Shown here in pieces: positions 6,881-23,581 of a stretch of DNA of 32,122 nucleotides; positions within the stretch are counted from its first letter, which is position 1; every line of letters begins with the position of its first letter. Origin of the DNA: a virus (taxonomy: Duplodnaviria; Caudoviricetes); the IMG/VR virus record IMGVR_UViG_3300038379_000713, positions 1-32,122 of that record; one strand, given 5' to 3'. Under the pieces are notes generated by a model that was not told where the DNA came from, searched no databases, and saw only the letters and a program-made list of their open reading frames with translations. The position numbers were made by a program, and so were the translations under genes.

Positions 6881-7132
6881 TTACGTGGCGTTGCGAACGA
6901 CGACGACGGCGGCGCCGCTGTTGGAGGTCACAGACAAGACTTCGCTCGACGGCGTGCCGCTGTTGCACTCGGCGAAGATGATGTCGCCCTTGCGGAACTC
7001 CTTGGCCGCGGCGTTGAAATAGTTGGCGGCGACGACGACGGTCACGTCATCCGTGTGCGCGTAGCGCCAGAGCGAGATGCCGGCGCGAGGCGCCCGATGG
7101 ATGAGCGCGAGGCCGCTGCGGAGAAAAGCCAT
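6881..7132 (-). CDS. Small virion protein (putative capsid decoration), paralog 2
   Basis: 83 aa; shares VVAANYFN.A...F.KGDII with 7222..7464. Confidence 0.7.
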   Translation of the reverse strand: MAFLRSGLALIHRAPRAGISLWRYAHTDDVTVVVAANYFNAAAKEFRKGDIIFAECNSGTPSSEVLSVTSNSGAAVVVVRNAT

Positions 7133-7153: not shown

Positions 7154-7223
7154 GGGAGGGGAGCCGGAGGCAAGTCCGGCCCCCCTCCGCGCGATCCCGT
7201 TCGGGTCTGAAGCAAACGGGATC
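7154..7223 (-). other. Two tandem intergenic stem-loops between the paralogous small genes (no U-tract)
   Basis: GGAGGGGAGCCGGA/TCCGGCCCCCCTCC and GATCCCGTT/AACGGGATC inverted repeats. Confidence 0.5.
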
Positions 7224-7464
7224 ACGTGCCGTTGACCACGGTCACGACCGCGGCACGGTCTGCGGAGCTCACCACCAGCGCGTCGATGGTGTTGGCGTTG
7301 GTATCGACGGCGATGATGATGTCTCCCTTGAAAAACTGGTCGCTGGCGCCATTGAAGTAGTTGGCGGCCACGACCGTGGCGATGGTGTCGGCCGAATGGT
7401 AGATGAACACATTCTTGCCGTTGGCGTGCGCGATGCGCGCCAGGTTGAGACTGTTGAGAGCCAT
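7222..7464 (-). CDS. Small virion protein (putative capsid decoration), paralog 1
   Basis: 80 aa, strong RBS (AAGGAG), directly downstream of the major capsid gene. Confidence 0.72.
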   Translation of the reverse strand: MALNSLNLARIAHANGKNVFIYHSADTIATVVAANYFNGASDQFFKGDIIIAVDTNANTIDALVVSSADRAAVVTVVNGT

Positions 7465-11874: not shown

Positions 11875-11960
11875 CGCGGCGGGTCGCCGACGTCGGCCAG
11901 GATCGGCGGGTGCACGTTGCCGCGGATGCGCGTCGCGCCCTCGATGACGCCCACGATCAT
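11871..11960 (-). CDS. 29-aa mini-ORF (MIVGVIEGATRIRGNVHPPILADVGDPPR), possibly an internally deleted gene
   Basis: ATGA overlaps with both the terL stop and the next start; below the ORF-track cutoff. Confidence 0.55.
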   Translation of the reverse strand: MIVGVIEGATRIRGNVHPPILADVGDPPR

Positions 11961-13483
11961 GAACGCCTCCGAAGGCTCGCGTTTCGGTCGCGGCTGCCGC
12001 GCTCATACACGTTCCAATGCCGCTTGGCCTGCACGACGCGGCCCTGCCGGTCGGCCGGCGGCCGCAGCAGCGCCGTGCCCTCGCCGATGCCCAGGCACAG
12101 ATACTGGTAGGCCTCGGCGACGTGCGAGGACTGGTTCTTCAGCGGCCGCTCCGCATGGCGCACCCCGCCGCTGACCGCGATGCGCGGAAAGTGATAGCCG
12201 CCGGCGCACGCCTTGCGGAAATGCCGGCAGCTGGGGTCGATTAGCAGGCCGGGCTTGCCCTCGACCATGCGCTTGAACGGCGCCTCGGCCGCCTCGATGC
12301 GCAGCGTGAAGTCGTTGCTGTGCGCCGGCACGGCCAGCAGGCCCTGGGCGTTCAGGATCATGAAGGGCGTCTGCTCGTCCGTCTGCGCCCGCTGGTCGCC
12401 GGCGGGGTCGCCGGTGATGGTCACCGGGCAGTCCGGGTAGTCGCGCGCCAGCAGCTTGCGCAGCTCGCGCCCGAACGTTTCCATGCCCATGCTCGTGGCC
12501 ACGAGCTCGCGCTGGATCAGCCGGCGGCCGCGCAGGTCCTGGCTCAGGACGGCGGCCGGCGTCAGGCCGAAGTCCAGGCCGATGTCCACGGGCGTCCGCG
12601 GCAGGATCGGCAACGGCGTCGGCGAGCAGTGCGTGTCCTCGTTGAACTGCGTGTAGACCGCCTTGCCCTCCTTCACCACGACCAGCCGGTTGCCGACGTT
12701 GCGGCGGATGTGGGAGGCCGTCTTGCCGCGGATGAGGTTCTCGTAATAGCCCGGCGGCAGGTAGCGCAGGTTCTCGGCCCGGGGGTTCATTTCCCATCCC
12801 GTGGTGCGGCCGGCCTCGTCGCGCAGCTCCAGCATCGCCGGCGGCTGGTTGAAGAACCGCCAGTTGTCGGGCTTCTGCAGCATGGCCGCTTCTTCTTCGG
12901 GAATGTCTTCCGGCAGGGGCACGTCGCCGGCGACGATCGGCCACCAGTGGTCCGGATCCATGGCGTTGGTGTCCATGACCAGGCCGGACCAGGTGGGGCC
13001 GCCGTCGATGGTGCGGGGGAAGCGGCCGATGCGCTCGATCAGCGTGTCCACGACGATCTTCGGCACGAACCGCGCCTCGTTGATCCAGCCGAAGGTGACA
13101 TCCAGGGAATAGAGTTTCTTGACGTCTTCCTCGTAGTCCAGCGCCAGGAACCACATCTCGAAGTCGATGTCGCCGACGCGGACGCGGTGCACGAACGGCG
13201 GCTGCCAGTTGAACTTGCCCCACTGCGCCTCGGGAAACCATTGCAACCAGGTGGCGATGGTCGTGGTCTTGAGCTCGGGCTGCGTGTTGCGGATGGCGAC
13301 GCCCTTCGTGCGACGTATCCCGTCCGGGCCGGGCCGCTGCTGGCAGGCGCGCCGGAACAGCTCGATGCCCGCGCAGACGGACTTGCCGGAGCCGATGGGG
13401 CCGCGGATGCCCCGGACGAAGGCGTCCGACAGCATGAACGCCGCCAGCGTCTCGCCGTCCGGCGCGTAATTCAGCTCGGGCAT
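11957..13483 (-). CDS. terL: Terminase large subunit
   Basis: Walker A GPIGSGKS, Walker B WINE, coupling motif DTN, nuclease 'IGLDFGLTPA' and 'SHVAEAYQY'. Confidence 0.95.
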   Translation of the reverse strand: MPELNYAPDGETLAAFMLSDAFVRGIRGPIGSGKSVCAGIELFRRACQQRPGPDGIRRTKGVAIRNTQPELKTTTIATWLQWFPEAQWGKFNWQPPFVHRVRVGDIDFEMWFLALDYEEDVKKLYSLDVTFGWINEARFVPKIVVDTLIERIGRFPRTIDGGPTWSGLVMDTNAMDPDHWWPIVAGDVPLPEDIPEEEAAMLQKPDNWRFFNQPPAMLELRDEAGRTTGWEMNPRAENLRYLPPGYYENLIRGKTASHIRRNVGNRLVVVKEGKAVYTQFNEDTHCSPTPLPILPRTPVDIGLDFGLTPAAVLSQDLRGRRLIQRELVATSMGMETFGRELRKLLARDYPDCPVTITGDPAGDQRAQTDEQTPFMILNAQGLLAVPAHSNDFTLRIEAAEAPFKRMVEGKPGLLIDPSCRHFRKACAGGYHFPRIAVSGGVRHAERPLKNQSSHVAEAYQYLCLGIGEGTALLRPPADRQGRVVQAKRHWNVYERGSRDRNASLRRRS

Positions 13484-13906: not shown

Positions 13907-14154
13907 GCGAGCAACCCCCGGCGAACGGCCCGCGCGATCATCTTTTCGCAGGTCTCCGGGCCGAAGCTCTCGATGATCCGATCGGCCTCGCGGTCGGTGC
14001 AGCGTTCCCCGGGGTAATGCCGCATGTGCACGCGGCGCACGATCTGCCGCAGGCGCTGCAAATCCTTGAACCGGAGCTGCGCGACGAAGGACGGGCGGTC
14101 GCCAGGGATCAGCGGGTCGGCGGCGGCGTCCGCCGGCGCGTCCGGGCGCTTCAC
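13903..14154 (-). CDS. Conserved-looking phage hypothetical protein, 83 aa
   Basis: 'LRQIVRRVHMRHYP...TDREADRIIESFGP'; overlaps neighbours at both ends. Confidence 0.65.
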   Translation of the reverse strand: MKRPDAPADAAADPLIPGDRPSFVAQLRFKDLQRLRQIVRRVHMRHYPGERCTDREADRIIESFGPETCEKMIARAVRRGLLA

Positions 14155-14426
14155 CGGTTGCGCCCGGAATCACGGGAACCCTGGAAGATCGTCGGCTTGG
14201 GCGCCTTCACCGGCGCCGTCAGCAGGACGCTGAACGTGCCGCCGGCGGCGGCGCCGGGGCGGCCGCGAATGCCGCGCCCGCCAAACGGACGGCCCCCGCG
14301 CGGCCGGCCGCCGCCGGCGCTGAGAGCCTCGAACAAGGGGATTCCGGTCTGTCTCACGATCGACCTCGTGAAATCGTTGCTGGGCGTCCAGGGATTGACG
14401 CGCGTCGGCAAGGTCGCGTTGGCCAT
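14151..14426 (-). CDS. Hypothetical basic Gly/Arg-rich protein, 91 aa
   Basis: GAGG RBS before ATG; stop overlaps the next start. Confidence 0.55.
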   Translation of the reverse strand: MANATLPTRVNPWTPSNDFTRSIVRQTGIPLFEALSAGGGRPRGGRPFGGRGIRGRPGAAAGGTFSVLLTAPVKAPKPTIFQGSRDSGRNR

Positions 14427-14563
14427 GGTCTACCTCGCAGTATTGAAACAGGCGCCGGGCGCCGCGCCTGGCGGCACGTAGCAGACGATCTGCCGGAGTC
14501 TCGGCCCGGCGCGATTCTCAGATGTGCCCATGCTCCCGTTCTCCTTCCGTTCCCCCGCCGTTG

Positions 14564-14992
14564 TCAATCGGCCGCCGTCGGCTTCGCCGCCTTGCGCCGG
14601 CCCGCCGCCGCCACCTTCTTGGCCACCCGCGCCGCCATCCGCCGCCGCTGGCGCTCGACCTTCAACCGCTCGATCACCCGCGCCTCGATCTCCGCTTCCC
14701 GCTCGGCCTCGGTCGGACCCGCGACCGCCGGCCGCGCCCCCGCGCCGTCCACCGGCTCGTCCACCGACCGCCCGACCCGCGCGGCCGCCTTCACCGCCGG
14801 CACCCGCGACGGCCGCGCCGCCACCGACGGATGCAACCCGCCCTCGGCCGCCGCGATCTCCTTCCGCAACTGCCGCGCCAGCGCCCGGGCCACCCCGCCC
14901 GCATTGCCGGCCGCAATCTCCAACTCCAACGCCGACAACCGCCGCCGCGCGGCGGCCAGGTCATACGGCCGCAAGTCGCTCAGGCTGGGCAT
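14564..14992 (-). CDS. Hypothetical basic coiled-coil protein
   Basis: GGGGAG RBS before ATG 14992; same strand as the operon. Confidence 0.55.
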   Translation of the reverse strand: MPSLSDLRPYDLAAARRRLSALELEIAAGNAGGVARALARQLRKEIAAAEGGLHPSVAARPSRVPAVKAAARVGRSVDEPVDGAGARPAVAGPTEAEREAEIEARVIERLKVERQRRRMAARVAKKVAAAGRRKAAKPTAAD

Positions 14993-15116
14993 CGGACACA
15001 CTCCCCGACAAATCTCACAGGACACCCGCTATCGCGGAAACCATTTGGAGACATCTTGCCAACCTCCTGAGGAAACATGCCACCTGCGACAGTGCAGGGA
15101 GGCGGTGAAAGAAAAT

Positions 15117-15581
15117 TTACAGACGGGGCGGGGGGGTCACGGGACCATCGCGCCGTTTCGACCCCCCCGGGGTCACATCGACGATGGGGCCGTGGGGCCC
15201 CCTCGCGTCGGGGATCGAGATGTTCACCACCAGCGGGCTGCGCTGCGCCCCGGCATCGCCCGCGCCGATCCGGTTGCGATTCAGGACGTCCTTCGCGGCC
15301 TCCAGCGAGACATAGCCGCTCTTGTGGCGGATCAGCTCGTGCAGCCGCTGTGCCGCGAAGGGCGCGGCTTGCGCGAGGATCAAGTCCGTGTGTTCGATCA
15401 AGGCGTTACGGACTTTCGGGAGTCTTATAAGCCGGGAGGCGGTCACATGCGCCGACTTTTGCCCGTATCCTGCGGCTATTGCGGCCTGCGTGCCGTTGCC
15501 GTTGTTCGCTAAATACGCTTCCACGAAGCGTTCCTGCTTAGGCGTCAGCGCCTGGGCGGGTGTCAGCGGAAGGGTTGGCAT
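15117..15581 (-). CDS. terS: Terminase small subunit
   Basis: 'LTPKQERFVEAYL...NGTQAAIAAGY...AHVTASRL...PKV' HTH signature; AAGGA RBS. Confidence 0.9.
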   Translation of the reverse strand: MPTLPLTPAQALTPKQERFVEAYLANNGNGTQAAIAAGYGQKSAHVTASRLIRLPKVRNALIEHTDLILAQAAPFAAQRLHELIRHKSGYVSLEAAKDVLNRNRIGAGDAGAQRSPLVVNISIPDARGPHGPIVDVTPGGSKRRDGPVTPPPRL

Positions 15582-15808
15582 CGGCGTCCTTTGTCGTCTC
15601 GTTTGTGTACACAGGGCGCAGGGGCGGAAACCCCCGTCAATGCACAGACCTAACACTTTGGGCTGCGGCGGATTTCCGCCTTATACCCCGGAGGGGTAAG
15701 GGGGCGCCTCCCGATGCTCCGCATCGGGACCGCGCTCTACTCGCTGCGCTCCCCGAGCCGCTGCGCGTCTCGGCCCTGGCGGGTGACGATCGCTGGCGCG
15801 GCGGCGGC

Positions 15809-16272
15809 TGTCGCCGCCGGCTTCCCCGGTGGGGCGGCGCCTGATCGCGTGTGAGCGGCCCGTTCCGCCCCTGACCGAACCGCCTGGCGCTGCATCCCCG
15901 GGGCCGGCCGGCCTCGGCGGCGGGGTCCGTTCTGCGCCGTCGGCCCACGGTATAGGGGGCCGTTGTGCTTCAGACCTGCGCCCGCTCCTGCGCACGCTGC
16001 GCTGCGCTCCGCGCCCTCCGGGTTTGCAAGAACAAAGACGGTTTCCGCTGCGCGGACCCTCCGTCTTTCTTCTTGCAAATGCGCAGGACCGGTCGCGGAC
16101 GGTCACGCACAACGGCCCCCTATACCGTGGGCCGAAGACAACAGGACGCTCGCCGCGTCGGCCGACCAGCCCCTCCAGGGGGTACAGCGAACACGTTTCG
16201 CTCAGGTGCACAACGGGCCGCTCACACGCGATCAGGCGCCGCCCCACCGGGGAAGCAGACTTTTTGGCGACA
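15809..16272. repeat. ~465-nt imperfect nested inverted repeat (rod-like hairpin) in non-coding DNA
   Basis: Perfect 45 bp (15820-15864/16212-16256), perfect 29 bp (15940-15968/16107-16135), 9 bp (15986-15994/16080-16088), 18/19 bp (16023-16041/16061-16079), 7 bp (15809-15815/16266-16272). Confidence 0.95.
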
Positions 16273-16435
16273 ACCCTGTTGTGAACGAAGACCGGGACGA
16301 CGCCCTGCCCCTGACGGGGCCGGGCCGTCCCGATGCCGACATCTCCGCCGGCGCCGCGCTTGCGGCCCGGCCCCCGGCGGCGCCGCCGCCACCGACCAGG
16401 AACACCCTGGGTTTTTGCAAGAGGAGGTAACGACC

Positions 16436-16633
16436 ATGACCAAAGGACAATTCCTGAAGCACGATCTGCACACGGACCCGCGGATCCAGGACCTGCTGGA
16501 CCTTGCCGAGTACGCCGAGGGCCGCGGCGACGACGACGAGGCCGCCTGCGCCCGCGCCGAGATCGCCGCCATCCAGCGCGCGGCCCTGCCGCTGGTGGTC
16601 CAGCTGCCCATCGCGTTCAAGGGGCTGCTGTAA
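16436..16633 (+). CDS. Hypothetical protein, 65 aa (first gene after the hairpin)
   Basis: Strong RBS GAGGAGG; normal codon usage. Confidence 0.75.
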   Translation: MTKGQFLKHDLHTDPRIQDLLDLAEYAEGRGDDDEAACARAEIAAIQRAALPLVVQLPIAFKGLL

Positions 16634-16718
16634 CCGGCATCCCCCGGCGGCGGCCCGCGCCAAGCGCGCGGACCGCCCGCTGCTGTTCCCCATCCGTTCA
16701 CCTTAGGAGGTATCGACC

Positions 16719-17243
16719 ATGTCCACGCACCACCGCGTCGTCGCGCAGCGCGACGCCGCCGACGAAGCCGCCAGCACCATCTGCACGTCTCTCATGGACG
16801 CCCAGGACATCGAGAGCGCGCACCGCGACCGCCAGCAGCGGGCGCAGAAGCTCATCCAGGCCCTGGCCTCGTTGTTCGAGGAGCCAGAGCTGGAGTTCAT
16901 GCAGGAAGCGCTGATCCGCGATCTCTGCTTCGCCGCCGACCGCAACGCCGGATGGGCGAGCGGCCGGCTGCACGAGGTCCTCGGGGAGATCAAGGAAGCC
17001 CTGGAGACCTTCAACGGCTCGGAGATCGCGGACACGCGGCTCCAGCGCAAGAACGACTACGCCGCCCGGCTGGAGTTCCAGCAGGAGGCTTGGCAGGACC
17101 TGCTGGCGGCCGCGCAAGGCGCGCACCGCCAGCTGGTCGGCCGCGACTGGTTGCCGGCGCCGAAGGGCCGGACCGCGGACAAGCGCCTCACCGCGAGCGC
17201 CGCGGACGCGCGCAGCCGCCTGGCCCGCCACGGCATCGCCTGA
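16719..17243 (+). CDS. Helical protein resembling the N-terminal region of alphaproteobacterial plasmid/ICE DUF2493 proteins
   Basis: AGGAGG RBS; 'NGSEI...G.DW.P...LTAS..D.R..LA' pattern (family similarity recalled, not searched). Confidence 0.6.
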   Translation: MSTHHRVVAQRDAADEAASTICTSLMDAQDIESAHRDRQQRAQKLIQALASLFEEPELEFMQEALIRDLCFAADRNAGWASGRLHEVLGEIKEALETFNGSEIADTRLQRKNDYAARLEFQQEAWQDLLAAAQGAHRQLVGRDWLPAPKGRTADKRLTASAADARSRLARHGIA

Positions 17244-17278
17244 CAGTACTGCCGGCGAGCGGCGGCGACGCCGCTCGC

Positions 17279-17307
17279 TTGCAATCCTGCAAGTTTGCAG
17301 CTATCGT
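17279..17307 (+). promoter_or_regulatory. Sigma70-type promoter with palindromic operator in the spacer
   Basis: TTGCAA-17 bp-TATCGT; operator CTGCAAGTTTGCAG at 17287-17300. Confidence 0.75.
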
Positions 17308-17339
17308 GATCTCAATCCTGCATCCCCAGAGAGGCACCC

Positions 17340-17627
17340 ATGCAATTCATCGTGATGGTCACGGTCATCGGCGTTCTCGCCGCCGTCGCCAAGATCGTTG
17401 TCCTGCTGCGCTTGGGCGTGCTGCGCAAGCTTATGGGCTTTCACTTCGCCCTCGACCTCGCCGCCGGCGCCCTGTTCGCCTGGCTGTTCTTCGGCACCCT
17501 GACCGGCATGGTCATCGCCGCCATCGCCGGCCTTGTGTTCAGTCTGTTCATCACCGTCTACCGCCGCGTGGCCGGCTACGAGCGCTTGACGCTGCGCGGC
17601 TGGCGGGACGTGCGTCCCCATGCGTAG
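17340..17627 (+). CDS. Small membrane protein (about 3 hydrophobic segments)
   Basis: 95 aa, strongly hydrophobic; GAGAGG RBS. Confidence 0.75.
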   Translation: MQFIVMVTVIGVLAAVAKIVVLLRLGVLRKLMGFHFALDLAAGALFAWLFFGTLTGMVIAAIAGLVFSLFITVYRRVAGYERLTLRGWRDVRPHA

Positions 17628-17964
17628 CGCCGGTCCGCTCCTGGCCGCCGTCGTCGCCCTGGCCGCGCCGGCGGCCGTGGCCGACGGCGACGAGATCGCC
17701 GCCATTCTGGAAGATCGCCAGGCCATGGTGCGGCTGATGGACCGATTCTGCCGGGCCGCCGAGGACTACCGCGACTGCGCCTTGGAAGCCGTGCACGCAT
17801 CGCTGGCCTTCGACGAGGAAGTCGAGCGCCTGTTCGCCGCGCCGATGGCCGGCCCGGTCTACGCGCGGCGCGTCCTCGACACCTTGTCTTGCGCCGAAGC
17901 GGCGGGCGTTCCCCGCACGCTCGACTTGCCGCTGATGGCGCGATGCCTGGGCACGATTCCCTGA
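17620..17964 (+). CDS. Putative exported protein, 114 aa
   Basis: Signal-peptide-like N-terminus (MRSAGPLLAAVVALAAPAAVA-D), 4 Cys. Confidence 0.6.
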   Translation: MRSAGPLLAAVVALAAPAAVADGDEIAAILEDRQAMVRLMDRFCRAAEDYRDCALEAVHASLAFDEEVERLFAAPMAGPVYARRVLDTLSCAEAAGVPRTLDLPLMARCLGTIP

Positions 17965-17976
17965 TGCCCAGGCGGC

Positions 17977-18017
17977 GCCGCCGCCCGGTGTCGCCTCCGC
18001 CGGGCGGCGGCTTTTTT
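17977..18017 (+). terminator. Intrinsic terminator
   Basis: 12-bp stem GCCGCCGCCCGG/CCGGGCGGCGGC followed by T6. Confidence 0.8.
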
Positions 18018-18031
18018 CCACAGGAGATCTC

Positions 18032-18427
18032 ATGACGCCAGATTCGTCTCCGCCGACCGCCGCGCTCCGGCGCTGGCTCGCGCGCCTGCGCGATCCCGCC
18101 AGCCGGCAGGCGTTCAACAGCCTGTACAGCGGCGACGCCGCCTGCCCGCTGGGTCACGGCGCGCGGGCGTGCGCGGATCTGCTGGGGCTGGTCGTGACAG
18201 ACCGCGGCGCCGTCGATCGCGACGATCCCGCCATCGTCCTGTTGACCTCGCAGATCATCAATCGCTTCGTCGCCATCGGCTTCGACCGGTTCACCTTGCT
18301 GCGCATCCTGCGGCTGAACGACGACCAGCGCCTGTCGCTGGCGCAGACGGCCGACTGGCTCGAACGTCAATGCCGTAAACAGGAGCGGCGGCGATCCGTC
18401 TCCGCCCGGCGCGAGACCGCGCCATGA
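18032..18427 (+). CDS. Phage hypothetical protein, tandem paralog A
   Basis: AGGAG RBS; LRRWL..LRDP.SRQAF..LY...AAC.LG.G...RLNDD..L.L...ADWLE shared with the next ORF. Confidence 0.75.
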   Translation: MTPDSSPPTAALRRWLARLRDPASRQAFNSLYSGDAACPLGHGARACADLLGLVVTDRGAVDRDDPAIVLLTSQIINRFVAIGFDRFTLLRILRLNDDQRLSLAQTADWLERQCRKQERRRSVSARRETAP

Positions 18428-18777
18428 GCGCCCGGTCCCGAATCCTCCGCCGCTGGCTCGGCCAGCTGCGCGATCCGCACAGCCGGCAAGCCTTTCACAG
18501 GCTGTATGACGCCGAGGCGGCCTGCGCCCTCGGCCAGGGCATGTTGGCGTGCCTCGATCTCCTGGGGCTCATCGTGACGGAACGCGGCGTTCTCGACCGG
18601 CGGACGCCGCGGCGGCCGCTGTCGCTGGCGCAGATCGTCGACCGCTTCGTCGCCGCCGGCTTCGACCGCGCGACCGTGGCCGCCGTCATCCGCCTCAACG
18701 ACGACCGGCGCCTGCCGCTGCCGCGCATCGCCGATTGGCTCGAACAGGAAATCCGCAAACAGGAGACCCCCCGATGA
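18424..18777 (+). CDS. Phage hypothetical protein, tandem paralog B
   Basis: ATGA overlap; clear paralog of 18032..18427. Confidence 0.75.
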   Translation: MSARSRILRRWLGQLRDPHSRQAFHRLYDAEAACALGQGMLACLDLLGLIVTERGVLDRRTPRRPLSLAQIVDRFVAAGFDRATVAAVIRLNDDRRLPLPRIADWLEQEIRKQETPR

Positions 18778-19334: not shown

Positions 19335-20402
19335 ATGAAACAGCAAATGACCGTTCAAGCCCTGGCGGCGGAGGTGCAGCGCCAGAAACACGCCAAGCGC
19401 GATTTCATCGCCACCACCAACAGCCTGACGTTGGTCCAGCCGGGCCCGGCCGGCGGCTGGCGCCTGGAGCTCGACGACGGCGCCGGCGCCATCGAGGCGT
19501 TCGAGCCGACGGGGCACGCGCACCGGCAGATCGGCGACCGCCTACAGATTCCCGTCAAGTATTACGAGCGGATGAAGGCCGACAACCCGCAGCTGCTCGC
19601 CGCCAACGTCAACAGCTGGTTTCGCAACACGCCGGAGCGCCGCATGGTCCGCACGCTCGACGGCCGGGCGCGGGCCTTCTTGTCCGACCGCTACCGCCGC
19701 ATCGACCACTACGATCTCATGGACGCGGTCCTGCCGGTGCTGGCGGAGGCGCCGGACATGCGCATCGAGAGCGCGGCGCTGACGGACACGCATATGTATG
19801 TGAAGGCCTTGTTCCCGACGTTGGAGGGCGAAGTCAGCAAGGGCGACGTCGTGCAATTCGGCGTGTGCATCTCCAATTCGGAGATCGGCGCCGGCGCGGT
19901 CGACATCGCGCCGCTGGTCATGCGCCTGGTCTGCAACAACGGCATGATCCTGCCGGACGCGCGGGTCCGCAAGAACCACGTCGGCCGCGCCATCGGCGGC
20001 GGCGAGGCCTACGAGCTGTTCAGCGACGAGGCGCTGGAGGCCGATGACCGGGCGCTCTTGCTGAAAGTGCGCGACCTCGTGCGCGCGACGACGACCGAGG
20101 ACGGCACGCGGCGGCTGCTGTCGCGCTTGCAGGACGCCGCCGGCGAGCGTTTCGGCGTGTCGCCGGGGGCCCTGGTCGAGGAGCTGTCCAACCAGAACAG
20201 CCTCAGCAAGAGCGAAAGCGATTCGATCATGCTCATGTTGATTGAGGGTCACGATCTCAGCCGGTGGGGCCTGGCGAACGCGGTCACGGCGACGGCCCGC
20301 GTGGTCGAGAGCTATGACCGCGCCACGGCGTTGGAGCGGCTCGGCGGCGCGATCATGGATCGGTGCGCGTTCGACGAGCGGGCGCTCGACAAGGCGGCGT
20401 GA
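19335..20402 (+). CDS. DUF932/DUF945-family protein
   Basis: 'RAFLSDRYRRID', 'ISNSEIG', 'RLVCNNGM', 'WGLANAVT' motifs; AAGGAG RBS. Confidence 0.85.
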   Translation: MKQQMTVQALAAEVQRQKHAKRDFIATTNSLTLVQPGPAGGWRLELDDGAGAIEAFEPTGHAHRQIGDRLQIPVKYYERMKADNPQLLAANVNSWFRNTPERRMVRTLDGRARAFLSDRYRRIDHYDLMDAVLPVLAEAPDMRIESAALTDTHMYVKALFPTLEGEVSKGDVVQFGVCISNSEIGAGAVDIAPLVMRLVCNNGMILPDARVRKNHVGRAIGGGEAYELFSDEALEADDRALLLKVRDLVRATTTEDGTRRLLSRLQDAAGERFGVSPGALVEELSNQNSLSKSESDSIMLMLIEGHDLSRWGLANAVTATARVVESYDRATALERLGGAIMDRCAFDERALDKAA

Positions 20403-21709: not shown

Positions 21710-23581
21710 ATGGAGTTCATCGGCCTGTCCAAGCTGCGCGTGGCCGCCAGCAACACCCGCAAGACCAACGTCGGCGACGGCGTGAAGGAGCTGGCGGCGT
21801 CAATTCTCGCCCACGGCCTGCTGCACAACCTCGTCGTCGTGCAGAACGGCGTTTATTACGACGTGATCGACGGCCAGCGCCGGCTGCTGGCGTTGCGCAG
21901 CCTCAAGCTCGACGGCGCGACGCCGATTCCCTGCGAGGTCCGGAAGGCCCCGGCCGCCGTTGCCGAGGAGCTGTCGCTGGCCGCCAACGTCGAGCGCGAG
22001 CCCCTGCATCCCATGGACGAATACGAGGCGTTTGCGCGGCTGGCGGCGGCCGGGCAGAGCGTGGCCGACATCGCCGCCCGGTTCGGCGTGGAAACGCGGA
22101 CGGTCGAGCGCCGCATGAAGTTGGGCGAGCTGTGCCCGATGGCGCGCGAGGCCTATCGCGCCGGCGCGCTTGACGCCGTGGCCATCAAGGCGCTGACCCT
22201 GGTCAAGAATCACAAGCAGCAGGAGAAGATTCTGCGCGCCTGCGGCTCCCGCAAGCAGGGGTATGCGGGCTGGCGCATTTCCCGGCTGGCCAAGGAGGAC
22301 AAGATCCGGACCGGCACGCAGTTGTTCGACATCGCCGACTACGAGGCCGCCGGCGGCACCGTGTCGGTCGATCTGTTTTCCGATGACGGCGACGAACTCA
22401 GCTATTTCGACGACGCGGTGCTGTACGACAAGCTTCAGCGCGAGGCCGTCGAGCGCCGCCTGGCCGCGTTCCGGGAGGCCGGCTGGGGCGAGGCCGTGTT
22501 TCACGAGCGCTTTTCGGAGTTCACCCCGGAAGCGCGCCAGTATCCGCCGGTGCACGGCCGCCTCGGCGTCAAGGCCAGGGCGAATGCCTGCATGATGCTG
22601 TATTTCGACGGGGCCGGCAATCTGATCGAGCGGCCGTGCCAGACGCCGGCGCAGGCCGCGGCCGCCGCCAAGGCCGCCAAGGCCGCCAAGGCGGCGGCGA
22701 AGGCGGCGGGCGCCGAGGCCGACGACGCGGACGGCGCGGCCGAGGCCGACGACGCCGGGTCGTCCTATCCGCGCGCCCTCGTCGCCGATCTGGCCCGGCA
22801 GAAAAGCCAGCTGTTGCAACAGCATGTCATCGGCAGCGTGGCCTGGTCGCTGCGCCTGCTGCTGTTCAAGCTGGTGGCGGCCGACGCGCCGGAGGTGGAG
22901 TACGCGCCGCATTGGTCTGTCGCTTCTGCCGGTCCGGATCCCGCGATGCGGTACAGCGCCGGCCTGTGGGACGAGATGCTGACCGTGGCGAAGTGGCTGA
23001 ACTGCCCGCTGGCGCCGGATGCCGTCATTAACGACGAGGAGACGCGCCGGCGCGTCCATCGCTGGCTGTTCTGGCGCACGGGCAGCGGGCAGGCGGCGGC
23101 CGACGCCCGGAAATGGGAGGGCATCGTCGCCATGGGCGACGAGCGGCTGCAGCGCAGCCTGGCGCTCTTGGGCGTGTTGTCCGTTGGCGTCAGCCCGACG
23201 CTGAGCGAGGGCCTGGCCGCCAATGGGGCGGCCGTGGCGCTGAACCTGCAGATCGAGAAGGTTTGGACGCCGAAGGCCGAGTTTTTCGCGCGCCTGTCCA
23301 AGAAGCAAATCGTCGCCATCGCCGACGAGATCGGCGCCAGGAACCACGGCCTCGCCGGGAAGAAGAAAGAGGCGGCCGTGGCGACGATGACGCGAATCTT
23401 CAGGGAGCCGCACGAGTGGGCGCCGACCAACGAGGACTTCCTGCGCAACGTCCGCACCTGGTTGCCGCCGGGCATGGGCTACAACACGCGGGTGGAGCGC
23501 CGGGATGCCGACGACATCGACGTGTTCGACGACGCCGACGACGACGGCGCGGAAATCGAGGGGTCCGGCGCCGATTCCTGA
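21710..23581 (+). CDS. ParB/RepB/Spo0J-family protein, long plasmid/ICE type
   Basis: 'ELAASILAHGLLHNLVV...VIDGQRRLLAL', 'ANVEREPLHPMDEYEAF', HTH 'VADIAARFGV', 'YEAAGG....DLF', C-terminal 'WLPPGM'; 623 aa. Confidence 0.9.
   Translation: MEFIGLSKLRVAASNTRKTNVGDGVKELAASILAHGLLHNLVVVQNGVYYDVIDGQRRLLALRSLKLDGATPIPCEVRKAPAAVAEELSLAANVEREPLHPMDEYEAFARLAAAGQSVADIAARFGVETRTVERRMKLGELCPMAREAYRAGALDAVAIKALTLVKNHKQQEKILRACGSRKQGYAGWRISRLAKEDKIRTGTQLFDIADYEAAGGTVSVDLFSDDGDELSYFDDAVLYDKLQREAVERRLAAFREAGWGEAVFHERFSEFTPEARQYPPVHGRLGVKARANACMMLYFDGAGNLIERPCQTPAQAAAAAKAAKAAKAAAKAAGAEADDADGAAEADDAGSSYPRALVADLARQKSQLLQQHVIGSVAWSLRLLLFKLVAADAPEVEYAPHWSVASAGPDPAMRYSAGLWDEMLTVAKWLNCPLAPDAVINDEETRRRVHRWLFWRTGSGQAAADARKWEGIVAMGDERLQRSLALLGVLSVGVSPTLSEGLAANGAAVALNLQIEKVWTPKAEFFARLSKKQIVAIADEIGARNHGLAGKKKEAAVATMTRIFREPHEWAPTNEDFLRNVRTWLPPGMGYNTRVERRDADDIDVFDDADDDGAEIEGSGADS

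What the first reader, a model, noticed from the sequence alone, without database searches (positions are those of the whole stretch)
15809..16272. Giant ~465-nt imperfect rod-like hairpin at the terS/early-gene divergence point
Seen: about 850 bp of non-coding DNA contains five nested inverted repeats with one shared centre near 16051 (7, 45, 29, 9 and 18/19 bp). The 75/76-nt segments between the 45- and 29-bp arms are also roughly two-thirds complementary by eye, so the whole stretch folds as one interrupted rod, with a 28-nt one-sided bulge (15995-16022) and a small apical hairpin. Extra local hairpins flank it (15667-15680, 15709-15729, 16294-16331). Known: long interrupted rods are the form of single-stranded DNA promoters/priming sites (F-plasmid Frpo, IncI ssi, rolling-circle sso), and pac sites usually lie near terS. 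Inference: this is a functional ssDNA/cruciform element (promoter, primer site or packaging/terminus signal) or an undescribed large structured RNA, which would be unexpected in a dsDNA podovirus prophage.
Basis: partly seen in the sequence, partly recalled or inferred. Interest (0 to 1): 0.88.

Follow-up and report, generated by a model that had tools for sequence, protein, structure and literature searches.

The report
Plasmid-style single-strand fold-back in phage
A double-stranded DNA phage carries a 470-base fold-back, kept in about half of its relatives and also found before the same gene family on conjugative plasmids, that likely works as a promoter only while one DNA strand is single, which would mean these phages start infection from a single-stranded end.

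Summary
The rod is real: 7-, 45-, 29-, 9- and 18/19-bp arms, z about -17. It is a family feature: 25 of 50 non-redundant related terS loci carry one, 0 of 25 unrelated terS loci, including the isolate Pelagibacter phage Hodr. The terS-side arm is a degenerate mirror of the first early gene's start and co-varies with it. One strand is favoured, the early-gene template: isolated G.T 222 vs A.C 19, and DNA-type GC(GNA)GC mini-hairpins 81 vs 24 expected. The first early protein is the N-terminal domain of DUF2493 proteins of alphaproteobacterial conjugative elements, which carry the same fold-backs and mini-hairpins on the template strand; window 15703-15793 matches DNA just upstream of such a gene. 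Best reading (0.55): an Frpo-like single-strand promoter/template used at the first-entering genome end. No consensus -10 box, termini or reads were obtained, and the mismatch spectrum partly fits RNA. The scan noted this kind of fold-back before on other phage DNA and on one conjugative element; I found no paper describing it in phages.

The parts
15806..16041 (-). terS-proximal arm of the rod; on the - strand it is the mirror that would stand in for the missing non-template strand
   Evidence: in relatives it mirrors the first early gene's start
16061..16275 (-). distal arm; the - strand here is the template of the early (+) genes
15995..16022 (-). 28-nt one-sided bulge made of short GNA-triloop hairpins (GGA, GGA, GCA, GCA), directly 3' of TTGCAAA on the - strand; a junction seen in relatives
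16044..16056 (-). apical mini-hairpin, GCA triloop on the - strand
16024..16029 (-). TTGCAA, -35-like hexamer of the proximal arm (paired copy at 16073-16078); role inferred
   Evidence: TTGC[AG] in first 90 nt of the proximal arm in 21 of 31 rods, shuffles 6.8 +- 2.2
16109..16135 (+). inferred start of the early transcript (A 30 nt after the hexamer) and its possible 5' stem-loop; by analogy with L099/L111 only
   Evidence: inference and 73 alignments; not tested
15684..15818 (-). mini-hairpin cluster between rod and terS; 77-86% like non-coding DNA of plasmids, incl. the stretch directly upstream of a DUF2493 gene and the end of a linear Rhodococcus plasmid
15635..15646 (-). conserved TGTGCA-TTGAC motif before terS (likely -35 of the late promoter)
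   Evidence: TTGAC within -260..+40 of terS in 61 of 68 loci; extended motif in 37 of 68, background 0.04 per 300 nt
15117..15575 (-). terminase small subunit (open frame from 15656)
   Evidence: PF03592 E 2e-16, phrog_51
15155..15168 (-). G-run + A-run motif at the end of terS; likely packaging (pac) signal, inferred from place and conservation
   Evidence: 51 of 60 loci, background 0.07 per 470 nt
16436..16633 (+). 65-aa first early ORF, no family; shares a 21-nt start motif with the next gene
   Evidence: (D5)
16719..17243 (+). 174-aa helical-hairpin protein, member of the family that is first early gene in most relatives; homologous to the N-terminal part of DUF2493/YAcAr proteins of conjugative elements
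19335..20402 (+). DUF932 gene; same Pfam family occurs in the DUF2493 cluster of a conjugative element (direct similarity weak)
21710..23581 (+). ParB-like gene, 33% identical over 274 aa to the ParB-like gene of that cluster

Best explanation
The rod is a conserved fold-back of the early-gene template strand that likely acts as an Frpo-like single-stranded-DNA promoter and stand-in second strand, and would be used when the first-entering end of the phage genome is made single-stranded. Shown: the terS-side arm mirrors the start (in long rods the whole) of the first early transcription unit, follows its changes, and pairs well only on the template strand; DNA-type mini-hairpins sit on that strand; conjugative elements carry the same arrangement before the same gene family. 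Inferred: (1) packaging starts at the motif after terS and runs towards terL, so terS-rod-early genes are packaged last and enter first, with the 3' end of the template strand leading; (2) 5'-to-3' resection (host AddAB/RecBCD-type or the phage RecE-like exonuclease) removes the coding strand; (3) mini-hairpins, which bind SSB poorly and resist 3' exonuclease, nucleate folding; (4) host sigma70 polymerase binds at TTGC(A/G)A beside the looped-out bulge, opens at the mismatch-rich stretch and transcribes towards the early genes (or lays a primer); (5) mismatches and periodic bulges keep the inverted repeat stable in double-stranded DNA and stop the other strand from folding.
For: Family-wide, position-specific: 25 of 50 non-redundant family loci vs 0 of 25 unrelated terS loci and 0 of 38 downstream controls; 32 of 68 after adding metagenome loci; Hodr 11935-12643. 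23 of 31 rods include the first early start codon, the long ones run through the ORF to its terminator. At 839 sites where two distal arms differ, 513 proximal arms follow their own partner, 121 unchanged, 1 crossed, 204 other (12 pairs); each of 8 mirrors is closest to its own gene. Isolated mismatches on the template strand: G.T 222 vs A.C 19 (24 loci up, 0 down), G.G 52 vs C.C 5 (31 rods). GC(GNA)GC 81 vs 23.7 expected on the template strand, 19 vs 21.5 on the other; CC(GNA)GG 45 vs 15; AC/TC stems not enriched on that strand; all four N used (68 loci). PMC13037366 (section 2.3 and passages read): only GNA loops with GC-GC or CC-GG stems form these very stable DNA hairpins, the RNA forms are much weaker, they occur at ssiA, G4 origin and N4 promoters, bind SSB poorly, resist 3' exonuclease. 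First early protein = DUF2493 N-terminal part (prob. 96.7, E 3e-10); before those genes mini-hairpins 51 vs 14.9 expected on the template, 8 vs 11.5 on the coding strand, rods in 6 of 15 loci, a 1,079-nt rod in conjugative plasmid pLA6_006; in 3 of 3 annotated plasmid regions the gene lies on the side away from the relaxase and points towards it, the leading-region layout described in PMC11541004 (passages). Window 15703-15793 is 81% like DNA just upstream of DUF2493 on pYGP1, same orientation.
Against: No canonical -10: the sigma70 scan found 0 promoters and I saw no consensus 17 nt after TTGC(A/G)A in the 14 anchored rods. G.A vs T.C shows no preference (80 vs 72) although DNA energies predict -1.6 kcal/mol and RNA energies 0; the four mismatch classes fit RNA energies better. 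Half of the family has no detectable rod (25 of 50; 36 of 68), and 9 of 15 DUF2493 loci and 2 of 3 annotated plasmid DUF2493 genes have none or only a short one. No evidence on termini: contig ends near terS are at mixed positions; pac and direction of packaging are inferred. No single-stranded phase is known for these phages. In the window the rod ends 160 nt before the first ORF and does not cover the DUF2493-like gene; its own polarity is weak (9 vs 4). CG(GNA)CG, which should not form a mini-hairpin, is also somewhat raised (25 vs 14). Pairs and loci share ancestry, and mirrors were aligned to their own partners, so the counts overstate independence.
Confidence: 0.55

Rival explanations
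1. The fold is RNA: a terS-sense transcript starts beyond the first early gene, runs antisense over it and folds back on the mirror arm; bulges limit RNase III cutting; it would tune or shut off the first early gene.
For: Mismatch classes track RNA energies (G.T strong, G.G strong, T.T weak, G.A none). 4-nt pyrimidine bulges (71; 80% pyrimidine; commonest spacings 28-31 nt) suit a nuclease-resistant RNA rod. Earlier notes e1-3261980 and e1-3505537 preferred RNA-level control.
Against: No gene or evident promoter feeds that strand from the early side; terS has its own TTGAC motif, downstream of the rod in 22 of 25 rods listed; RNA-type UNCG loops are on the other strand (19 vs 4 and 16 vs 6 expected) while the folding strand has GNA triloops; no Rfam match. 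Control on the early mRNA itself is disfavoured because that strand carries the A.C and C.C mismatches.
Confidence: 0.2
2. Single-stranded DNA element, but for replication or end protection rather than gene expression: an ssi/sso that primes the complementary strand, or a fold-back that caps and re-primes a 3' overhang left after pac cutting or resection.
For: Same strand and mini-hairpin evidence; the cluster 15703-15772 is 80% like the first 80 nt of a linear Rhodococcus plasmid, with the hairpins on the strand whose 3' end is at the terminus; other plasmid matches lie near parA/rep genes. Frpo itself also primes replication (title of Masai and Arai 1997, seen in a reference list).
Against: Does not explain why long mirrors cover one exact transcription unit from promoter region to terminator.
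Confidence: 0.14
3. Cruciform or packaging/terminus signal read on double-stranded DNA by terminase.
For: Next to terS in all cases; window has 45- and 29-bp perfect arms.
Against: The second strand is depleted of wobble pairs; perfect runs are short in relatives (median 3, 95th percentile 9; only the window has 29 and 45); a separate pac-like motif follows terS; the element occurs on plasmids without terminase.
Confidence: 0.05
4. Neutral inverted duplication kept alike by arm-to-arm gene conversion or inversion, or an assembly artefact.
For: Conversion would also make mirrors follow their partners; half of the family lacks it; reads were not seen.
Against: Conversion gives no strand polarity (222 vs 19) and no repeated TCTT bulges; arms are about 70% alike, not identical; present in many independent assemblies and an isolate genome; no invertase besides the integrase.
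Confidence: 0.06

Closest known systems
Frpo1/Frpo2 of plasmid F and ssi of ColIb-P9 (single-stranded-DNA promoters; PMC9849209 and PMC11541004, passages read)
   Same: Long imperfect fold-back of the template strand upstream of first-expressed genes; neighbours of leading-region type (DUF2493-N, DUF932, ParB-like, SSB); -35-like hexamer inside the stem.
   Different: In a tailed dsDNA phage with no relaxase or coupling protein; no canonical -10; up to 1.4 kb long in relatives and covering a whole gene; no Frpo-region match among the listed plasmid hits.
Hairpins upstream of DUF2493 (PF10686) genes on alphaproteobacterial ICEs/plasmids
   Same: Same gene family downstream, same strand polarity and mini-hairpins, rods that cover the gene start, direct DNA similarity of the flanking cluster.
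   Different: There the mirror often lies in the 3' end of a toprim gene and the protein has an extra YAcAr/SLOG domain; function is untested there too.
Phage N4 early promoters, RSF1010 ssiA, G4 origin (GNA mini-hairpins; PMC13037366)
   Same: GC(GNA)GC and CC(GNA)GG hairpins on a template strand.
   Different: Those are small hairpins read by a virion RNA polymerase or a primase; no such enzyme was found among 46 window ORFs scanned (record may be incomplete at its left end).
Actinomycete linear-plasmid telomeres (3' overhang fold-backs; mechanism recalled, not read)
   Same: 70-nt similarity to the end of a linear Rhodococcus plasmid, hairpins on the strand with the 3' end outward.
   Different: Internal in the phage record; no terminal-protein system seen; similarity may be convergence of low-complexity hairpins.
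T7 M-hairpin for terminal-repeat duplication (recalled)
   Same: Fold-back near the genome junction of a podovirus.
   Different: Short, near-perfect, primes towards the repeat; here the folding strand would prime away from terS.

Membership tests
Frpo/ssi single-strand promoter | template strand folds into a long stem-loop | tested here: met
   (computed, not probed)
Frpo/ssi single-strand promoter | -35 and -10 boxes rebuilt in the stem | tested here: inconclusive
   TTGC[AG] in 21 of 31 rods vs 6.8 expected; no -10 consensus
Frpo/ssi single-strand promoter | lies in the leading region of a conjugative element (oriT, relaxase) | tested here: not met
   no hit of TraA, DUF3363 relaxase or TraG in the window; met by gene order for the plasmid homologues, oriT not located
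Frpo/ssi single-strand promoter | transcription from ssDNA, off in dsDNA | not testable with these tools
   needs in vitro transcription
Frpo/ssi single-strand promoter | sequence homology to F Frpo or ColIb ssi | tested here: inconclusive
   blastn against 72,556 plasmids: 110 records, top genera Rhodococcus and Alphaproteobacteria; the 10 rows shown cover only the flank 15700-15820, not the rod; no Frpo sequence compared directly
N4-type hairpin promoter | GNA triloop hairpin on the template strand | tested here: met
N4-type hairpin promoter | phage-encoded virion RNA polymerase | tested here: inconclusive
   none among 46 ORFs; left end of record not fully scanned
pac/cos site | virion DNA ends map there | not testable with these tools
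   no reads; contig ends mixed; a better candidate lies at 15155-15168
Described structured RNA (Rfam) | match to a covariance model | tested here: not met
   0 hits at E<=1 in window 14000-18000; 0 at gathering score in 6 related loci
Diversity-generating retroelement template repeat | reverse transcriptase and adenine-only differences in a direct repeat | tested here: not met
   inverted repeat, all bases differ; no RT among 46 ORFs
DUF2493/YAcAr protein (for ORF 16719-17243) | N-terminal helical region | tested here: met
DUF2493/YAcAr protein (for ORF 16719-17243) | C-terminal PF10686 SLOG domain | tested here: not met
   no Pfam hit, protein ends at 174 aa

The most novel reading that the evidence does not exclude
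A widespread family of dsDNA podoviruses, including SAR11 phages, runs a conjugation-style 'leading region': the first-entering end becomes a 3' single strand that folds into a self-made duplex up to 1.4 kb long, so that a gene shared with conjugative elements is transcribed exactly when the host resects the incoming DNA. This would be a damage-triggered, single-strand-only transcription unit in a double-stranded virus.
Probability: 0.33. Interest if true: 0.93.

Novelty: new variant of a known kind. Interest (0 to 1): 0.8.

Why it matters
Single-strand promoters are known from conjugative plasmids, where DNA enters as one strand. Tailed phages are taken to inject and express duplex DNA. If the fold-back works as inferred, abundant marine and freshwater podoviruses have an unrecognised single-stranded stage at the entering end and share an establishment module (element plus gene) with conjugative elements. 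It gives a cultured test system (Pelagibacter phage Hodr), points to a function for DUF2493-family proteins at DNA entry, and offers a natural design for a promoter that fires only on single-stranded DNA.

Tried and rejected
Rod DNA against 50,697 phage records: 9 chance hits at E>=0.07. A 17-nt junction pattern in IMG/VR: 26 loci, none with a rod at the motif, terS or the early gene. A first self-complement score was too lax and was replaced (by 44). Contig ends as a proxy for termini: 15 of 76 left ends lie within 200 nt of terS but at unrelated positions and partly from the same contigs; not used. More distant podoviruses: no long rod in Vibrio 121E34-1, MEP301 or SI2; a 108-nt palindrome in BcepC6B; a weak AT-rich repeat across the record ends of HTVC010P, not shuffle-tested. 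16 bacterial regions upstream of capsid-gene hits had neither terS nor the early gene. Fold of the early protein (pLDDT 87): only generic helical hairpins in PDB, unnamed phage proteins in BFVD, nothing named in the Atlas, PHROGs, Pfam or PDB sequences; a Gam-like or Gre-like role is neither shown nor excluded. Upstream of DUF932, ParB and ArdC genes in two plasmids no rod was found (5 of 5). Literature: HTVC010P + inverted repeat 0 papers; Hodr 0; searches listed nothing on such an element in phages (listings only); DUF2493 occurs 0 times in the main text of PMC11541004 and PMC5512222 (supplements not read and may list it). PMC10504331 reports a 125-bp terminal repeat near terL for the more distant Skadi (passages).

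Full report
The observation. The window is a whole 32,122-nt virus record of a temperate podovirus: late genes on the - strand starting with terS (15117-15575) and terL, early genes on the + strand from 16436, integrase and tRNA-Gln at the right end. The stretch folds 17 to 19 standard deviations better than shuffles and is the only such element in the record. No Rfam family, no consensus sigma70 promoter and no similar phage DNA were found.

It is a family trait. TerL and TerS searches gave related loci; the closest isolate is Pelagibacter phage Hodr (TerL 49%). I kept loci with TerS profile score of at least 100 and at least 900 nt upstream, and removed near-duplicates. A fold-back above 1.5 times the best of 20 shuffles was found in 25 of 50 such loci, 0 of 25 loci with unrelated TerS, and 0 of 38 downstream control stretches; with metagenome loci, 32 of 68 scored 75 or more. 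The 31 scoring 85 or more were used for the tallies below. Lengths run from about 200 to 1,400 nt; Hodr has one at 11935-12643. Half of the family shows none by this test.

Anatomy. The distal arm is the start of the first early transcription unit: 23 of 31 rods include its start codon, and the long ones run through the whole 116-171-aa ORF and stop at its terminator. The terS-side arm is a non-coding, roughly 70% copy with frequent indels; it keeps the ribosome-binding site and often spoils the start codon. Each of 8 homologous mirrors is closest to its own gene (0.63-0.76 against 0.49-0.65), and at 839 sites that differ between two distal arms 513 mirrors follow their partner, 121 stay unchanged, 1 is crossed, 204 are other (12 pairs; pairs share ancestry and were aligned to their own partners). 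Near the apex a TTGC(A/G) motif is common (21 of 31, shuffles 6.8), and in most of 14 anchored rods a one-sided 13-28-nt hairpin bulge lies next to it; the window's CCC-GGA-GGG plus second hairpin has counterparts in L021, L026, L007, L194 and L206. Four-base pyrimidine bulges recur in the mirror, often 28-31 nt apart. In the window the rod ends 160 nt before the first ORF, and its 45- and 29-bp perfect arms are the longest in the set.

One strand folds. Among isolated mismatches, the terS-sense strand (the template of the early genes; the window's - strand) has G.T 222 against A.C 19, G.G 52 against C.C 5, T.T 49 against A.A 23, and G.A 80 against T.C 72. The first three show that this strand is favoured and the other disfavoured, which argues against a cruciform and against a lock on the early mRNA. 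The fourth goes against my reading: DNA energies predict a G.A preference of 1.6 kcal/mol, RNA energies none. For DNA: GC(GNA)GC occurs 81 times against 23.7 expected on that strand and 19 against 21.5 on the other, CC(GNA)GG 45 against 15, with all four loop bases and a peak in the 600 nt before terS; RNA-type UNCG loops are on the early-sense strand (68 loci). CG stems are mildly raised as well (25 against 14). The window has 7 GCGNAGC between 15722 and 16053, and C(GNA)G hairpins 8 against 2.0 in shuffles on the - strand, 1 on the + strand. PMC13037366 (section 2.3 and passages) reports that these are the very stable DNA mini-hairpins, weak as RNA, poor SSB binders, resistant to 3' exonuclease, and present at ssiA, the G4 origin and N4 promoters. 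terS has its own TTGAC motif (61 of 68 loci), downstream of the rod in 22 of the 25 rods listed, so the rod is unlikely to be the terS leader.

The link to conjugative elements. The first early proteins form one family that includes window ORF 16719-17243. Its profile hit 19 of 401 alphaproteobacterial genomes; the two hits scanned are DUF2493/YAcAr proteins, beside ssb or an ArdC-type peptidase (profile probability 96.7), and DNA of one matches 309 plasmid records, 189 predicted conjugative. Upstream of these genes mini-hairpins number 51 on the template strand (14.9 expected) and 8 on the coding strand (11.5), and 6 of 15 loci have a fold-back, three of them about 900 nt and covering the gene start; plasmid pLA6_006 has a 1,079-nt one, while two other annotated plasmids have little. 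Polarity over 7 such loci is the same but on few sites (G.T 29, A.C 9). In 3 of 3 annotated regions the gene lies on the side away from the relaxase and points towards it, the leading-region layout in PMC11541004 (passages); oriT itself was not located. The window's own flank 15703-15793 is 81% like the DNA directly upstream of DUF2493 on conjugative plasmid pYGP1, in the same orientation, and the window's DUF932 and ParB-like genes belong to families of the same cluster. The window has no relaxase or coupling protein by three queries.

How it likely works. On plasmids a folded template strand before a leading gene is what Frpo is (PMC9849209, passages). The phages keep the element under selection without conjugation genes, so the template strand is likely single at some stage. 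A G-run/A-run motif follows terS in 51 of 60 loci (background 0.07; window 15155-15168; absent by this pattern in Hodr). If this is pac and packaging runs towards terL, as in P22-like phages (recalled), the terS-rod-early block is packaged last and enters first, led by the 3' end of the template strand. Resection from 5' to 3' would leave just the strand that folds. The mirror would then supply a non-template strand for promoter binding and, in long rods, for release of the message over the whole first gene. These steps are inference; termini, single-stranded DNA and transcription were not observed, no reads could be examined, and no -10 consensus was found. I put this at 0.55, an RNA fold at 0.2, a priming or end-capping role at 0.14 (helped by the likeness of the flank to a linear Rhodococcus plasmid end), and cruciform, pac, relic or artefact at about 0.1 together.

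Novelty. It works like Frpo but fails membership on location and is inconclusive on the boxes: a new variant of a known kind. My literature searches (listings, plus passages of five papers) showed no description in phages; the library lacks most subscription papers and I read no supplements. The scan itself noted such mirrors in other marine phages five times and a DUF2493 hairpin once; these notes are unchecked, were seen after my own results, and are not counted as evidence. What this window adds is the tie between the two: same gene family, same strand, and direct DNA similarity.

Noticed in passing
window 16068-16087 with 16406-16425: An alternative 20-nt pairing (80%) could cover the ribosome-binding site of ORF 16436; TTTGCAAGA occurs at 16023, 16071 (reverse) and 16414 (I19 and D12).
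   Followed up: no
window 16422-16442 and 16705-16725: The first two early genes share a 21-nt start motif (90%); the 65-aa ORF may be an insertion before the family's usual first gene.
   Followed up: partly
window 15703-15772; L305:3-79: The mini-hairpin cluster is 80% like the first 80 nt of a linear Rhodococcus plasmid; 15 Rhodococcus records match.
   Followed up: partly
L302:4159-4320 versus L017:2100-2260: By eye, the plasmid hairpin before DUF2493 shares two G-run motifs with the apex of phage rods L006/L017/L021, in swapped order.
   Followed up: no
L300:14020-15098; L264, L266, L267: On these conjugative elements the mirror arm overlaps the 3' coding end of a toprim gene, so two coding regions are near reverse complements.
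   Followed up: partly
L075 (Hodr) 11935-12643; L102: Here the mirror arm runs into the terS promoter motif and the first terS codons.
   Followed up: partly
window 18032-18427 and 18424-18777; 6881-7132 and 7222-7464: Two pairs of tandem paralogous small genes (the second pair both phrog_18004).
   Followed up: no
family loci, 20-45 nt after the TTGAC motif; window 15694-15705: Paired G-runs (GGGGG-N3-4-GGGGG) before terS in many relatives, in either orientation; possible protein-binding site.
   Followed up: no
L153 (BcepC6B) 42411-103: A 108-nt palindrome spans the record ends, about 370 nt before terS.
   Followed up: no
L299:16320-17083; L301:16784-16987: Further fold-backs downstream of DUF2493, before DUF736 or a small ORF.
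   Followed up: no
L283-L298: Many genomes of one alphaproteobacterial order hold a capsid gene about 50% like the window's, but the 16 upstream regions read had no terS of this family; perhaps another element.
   Followed up: partly
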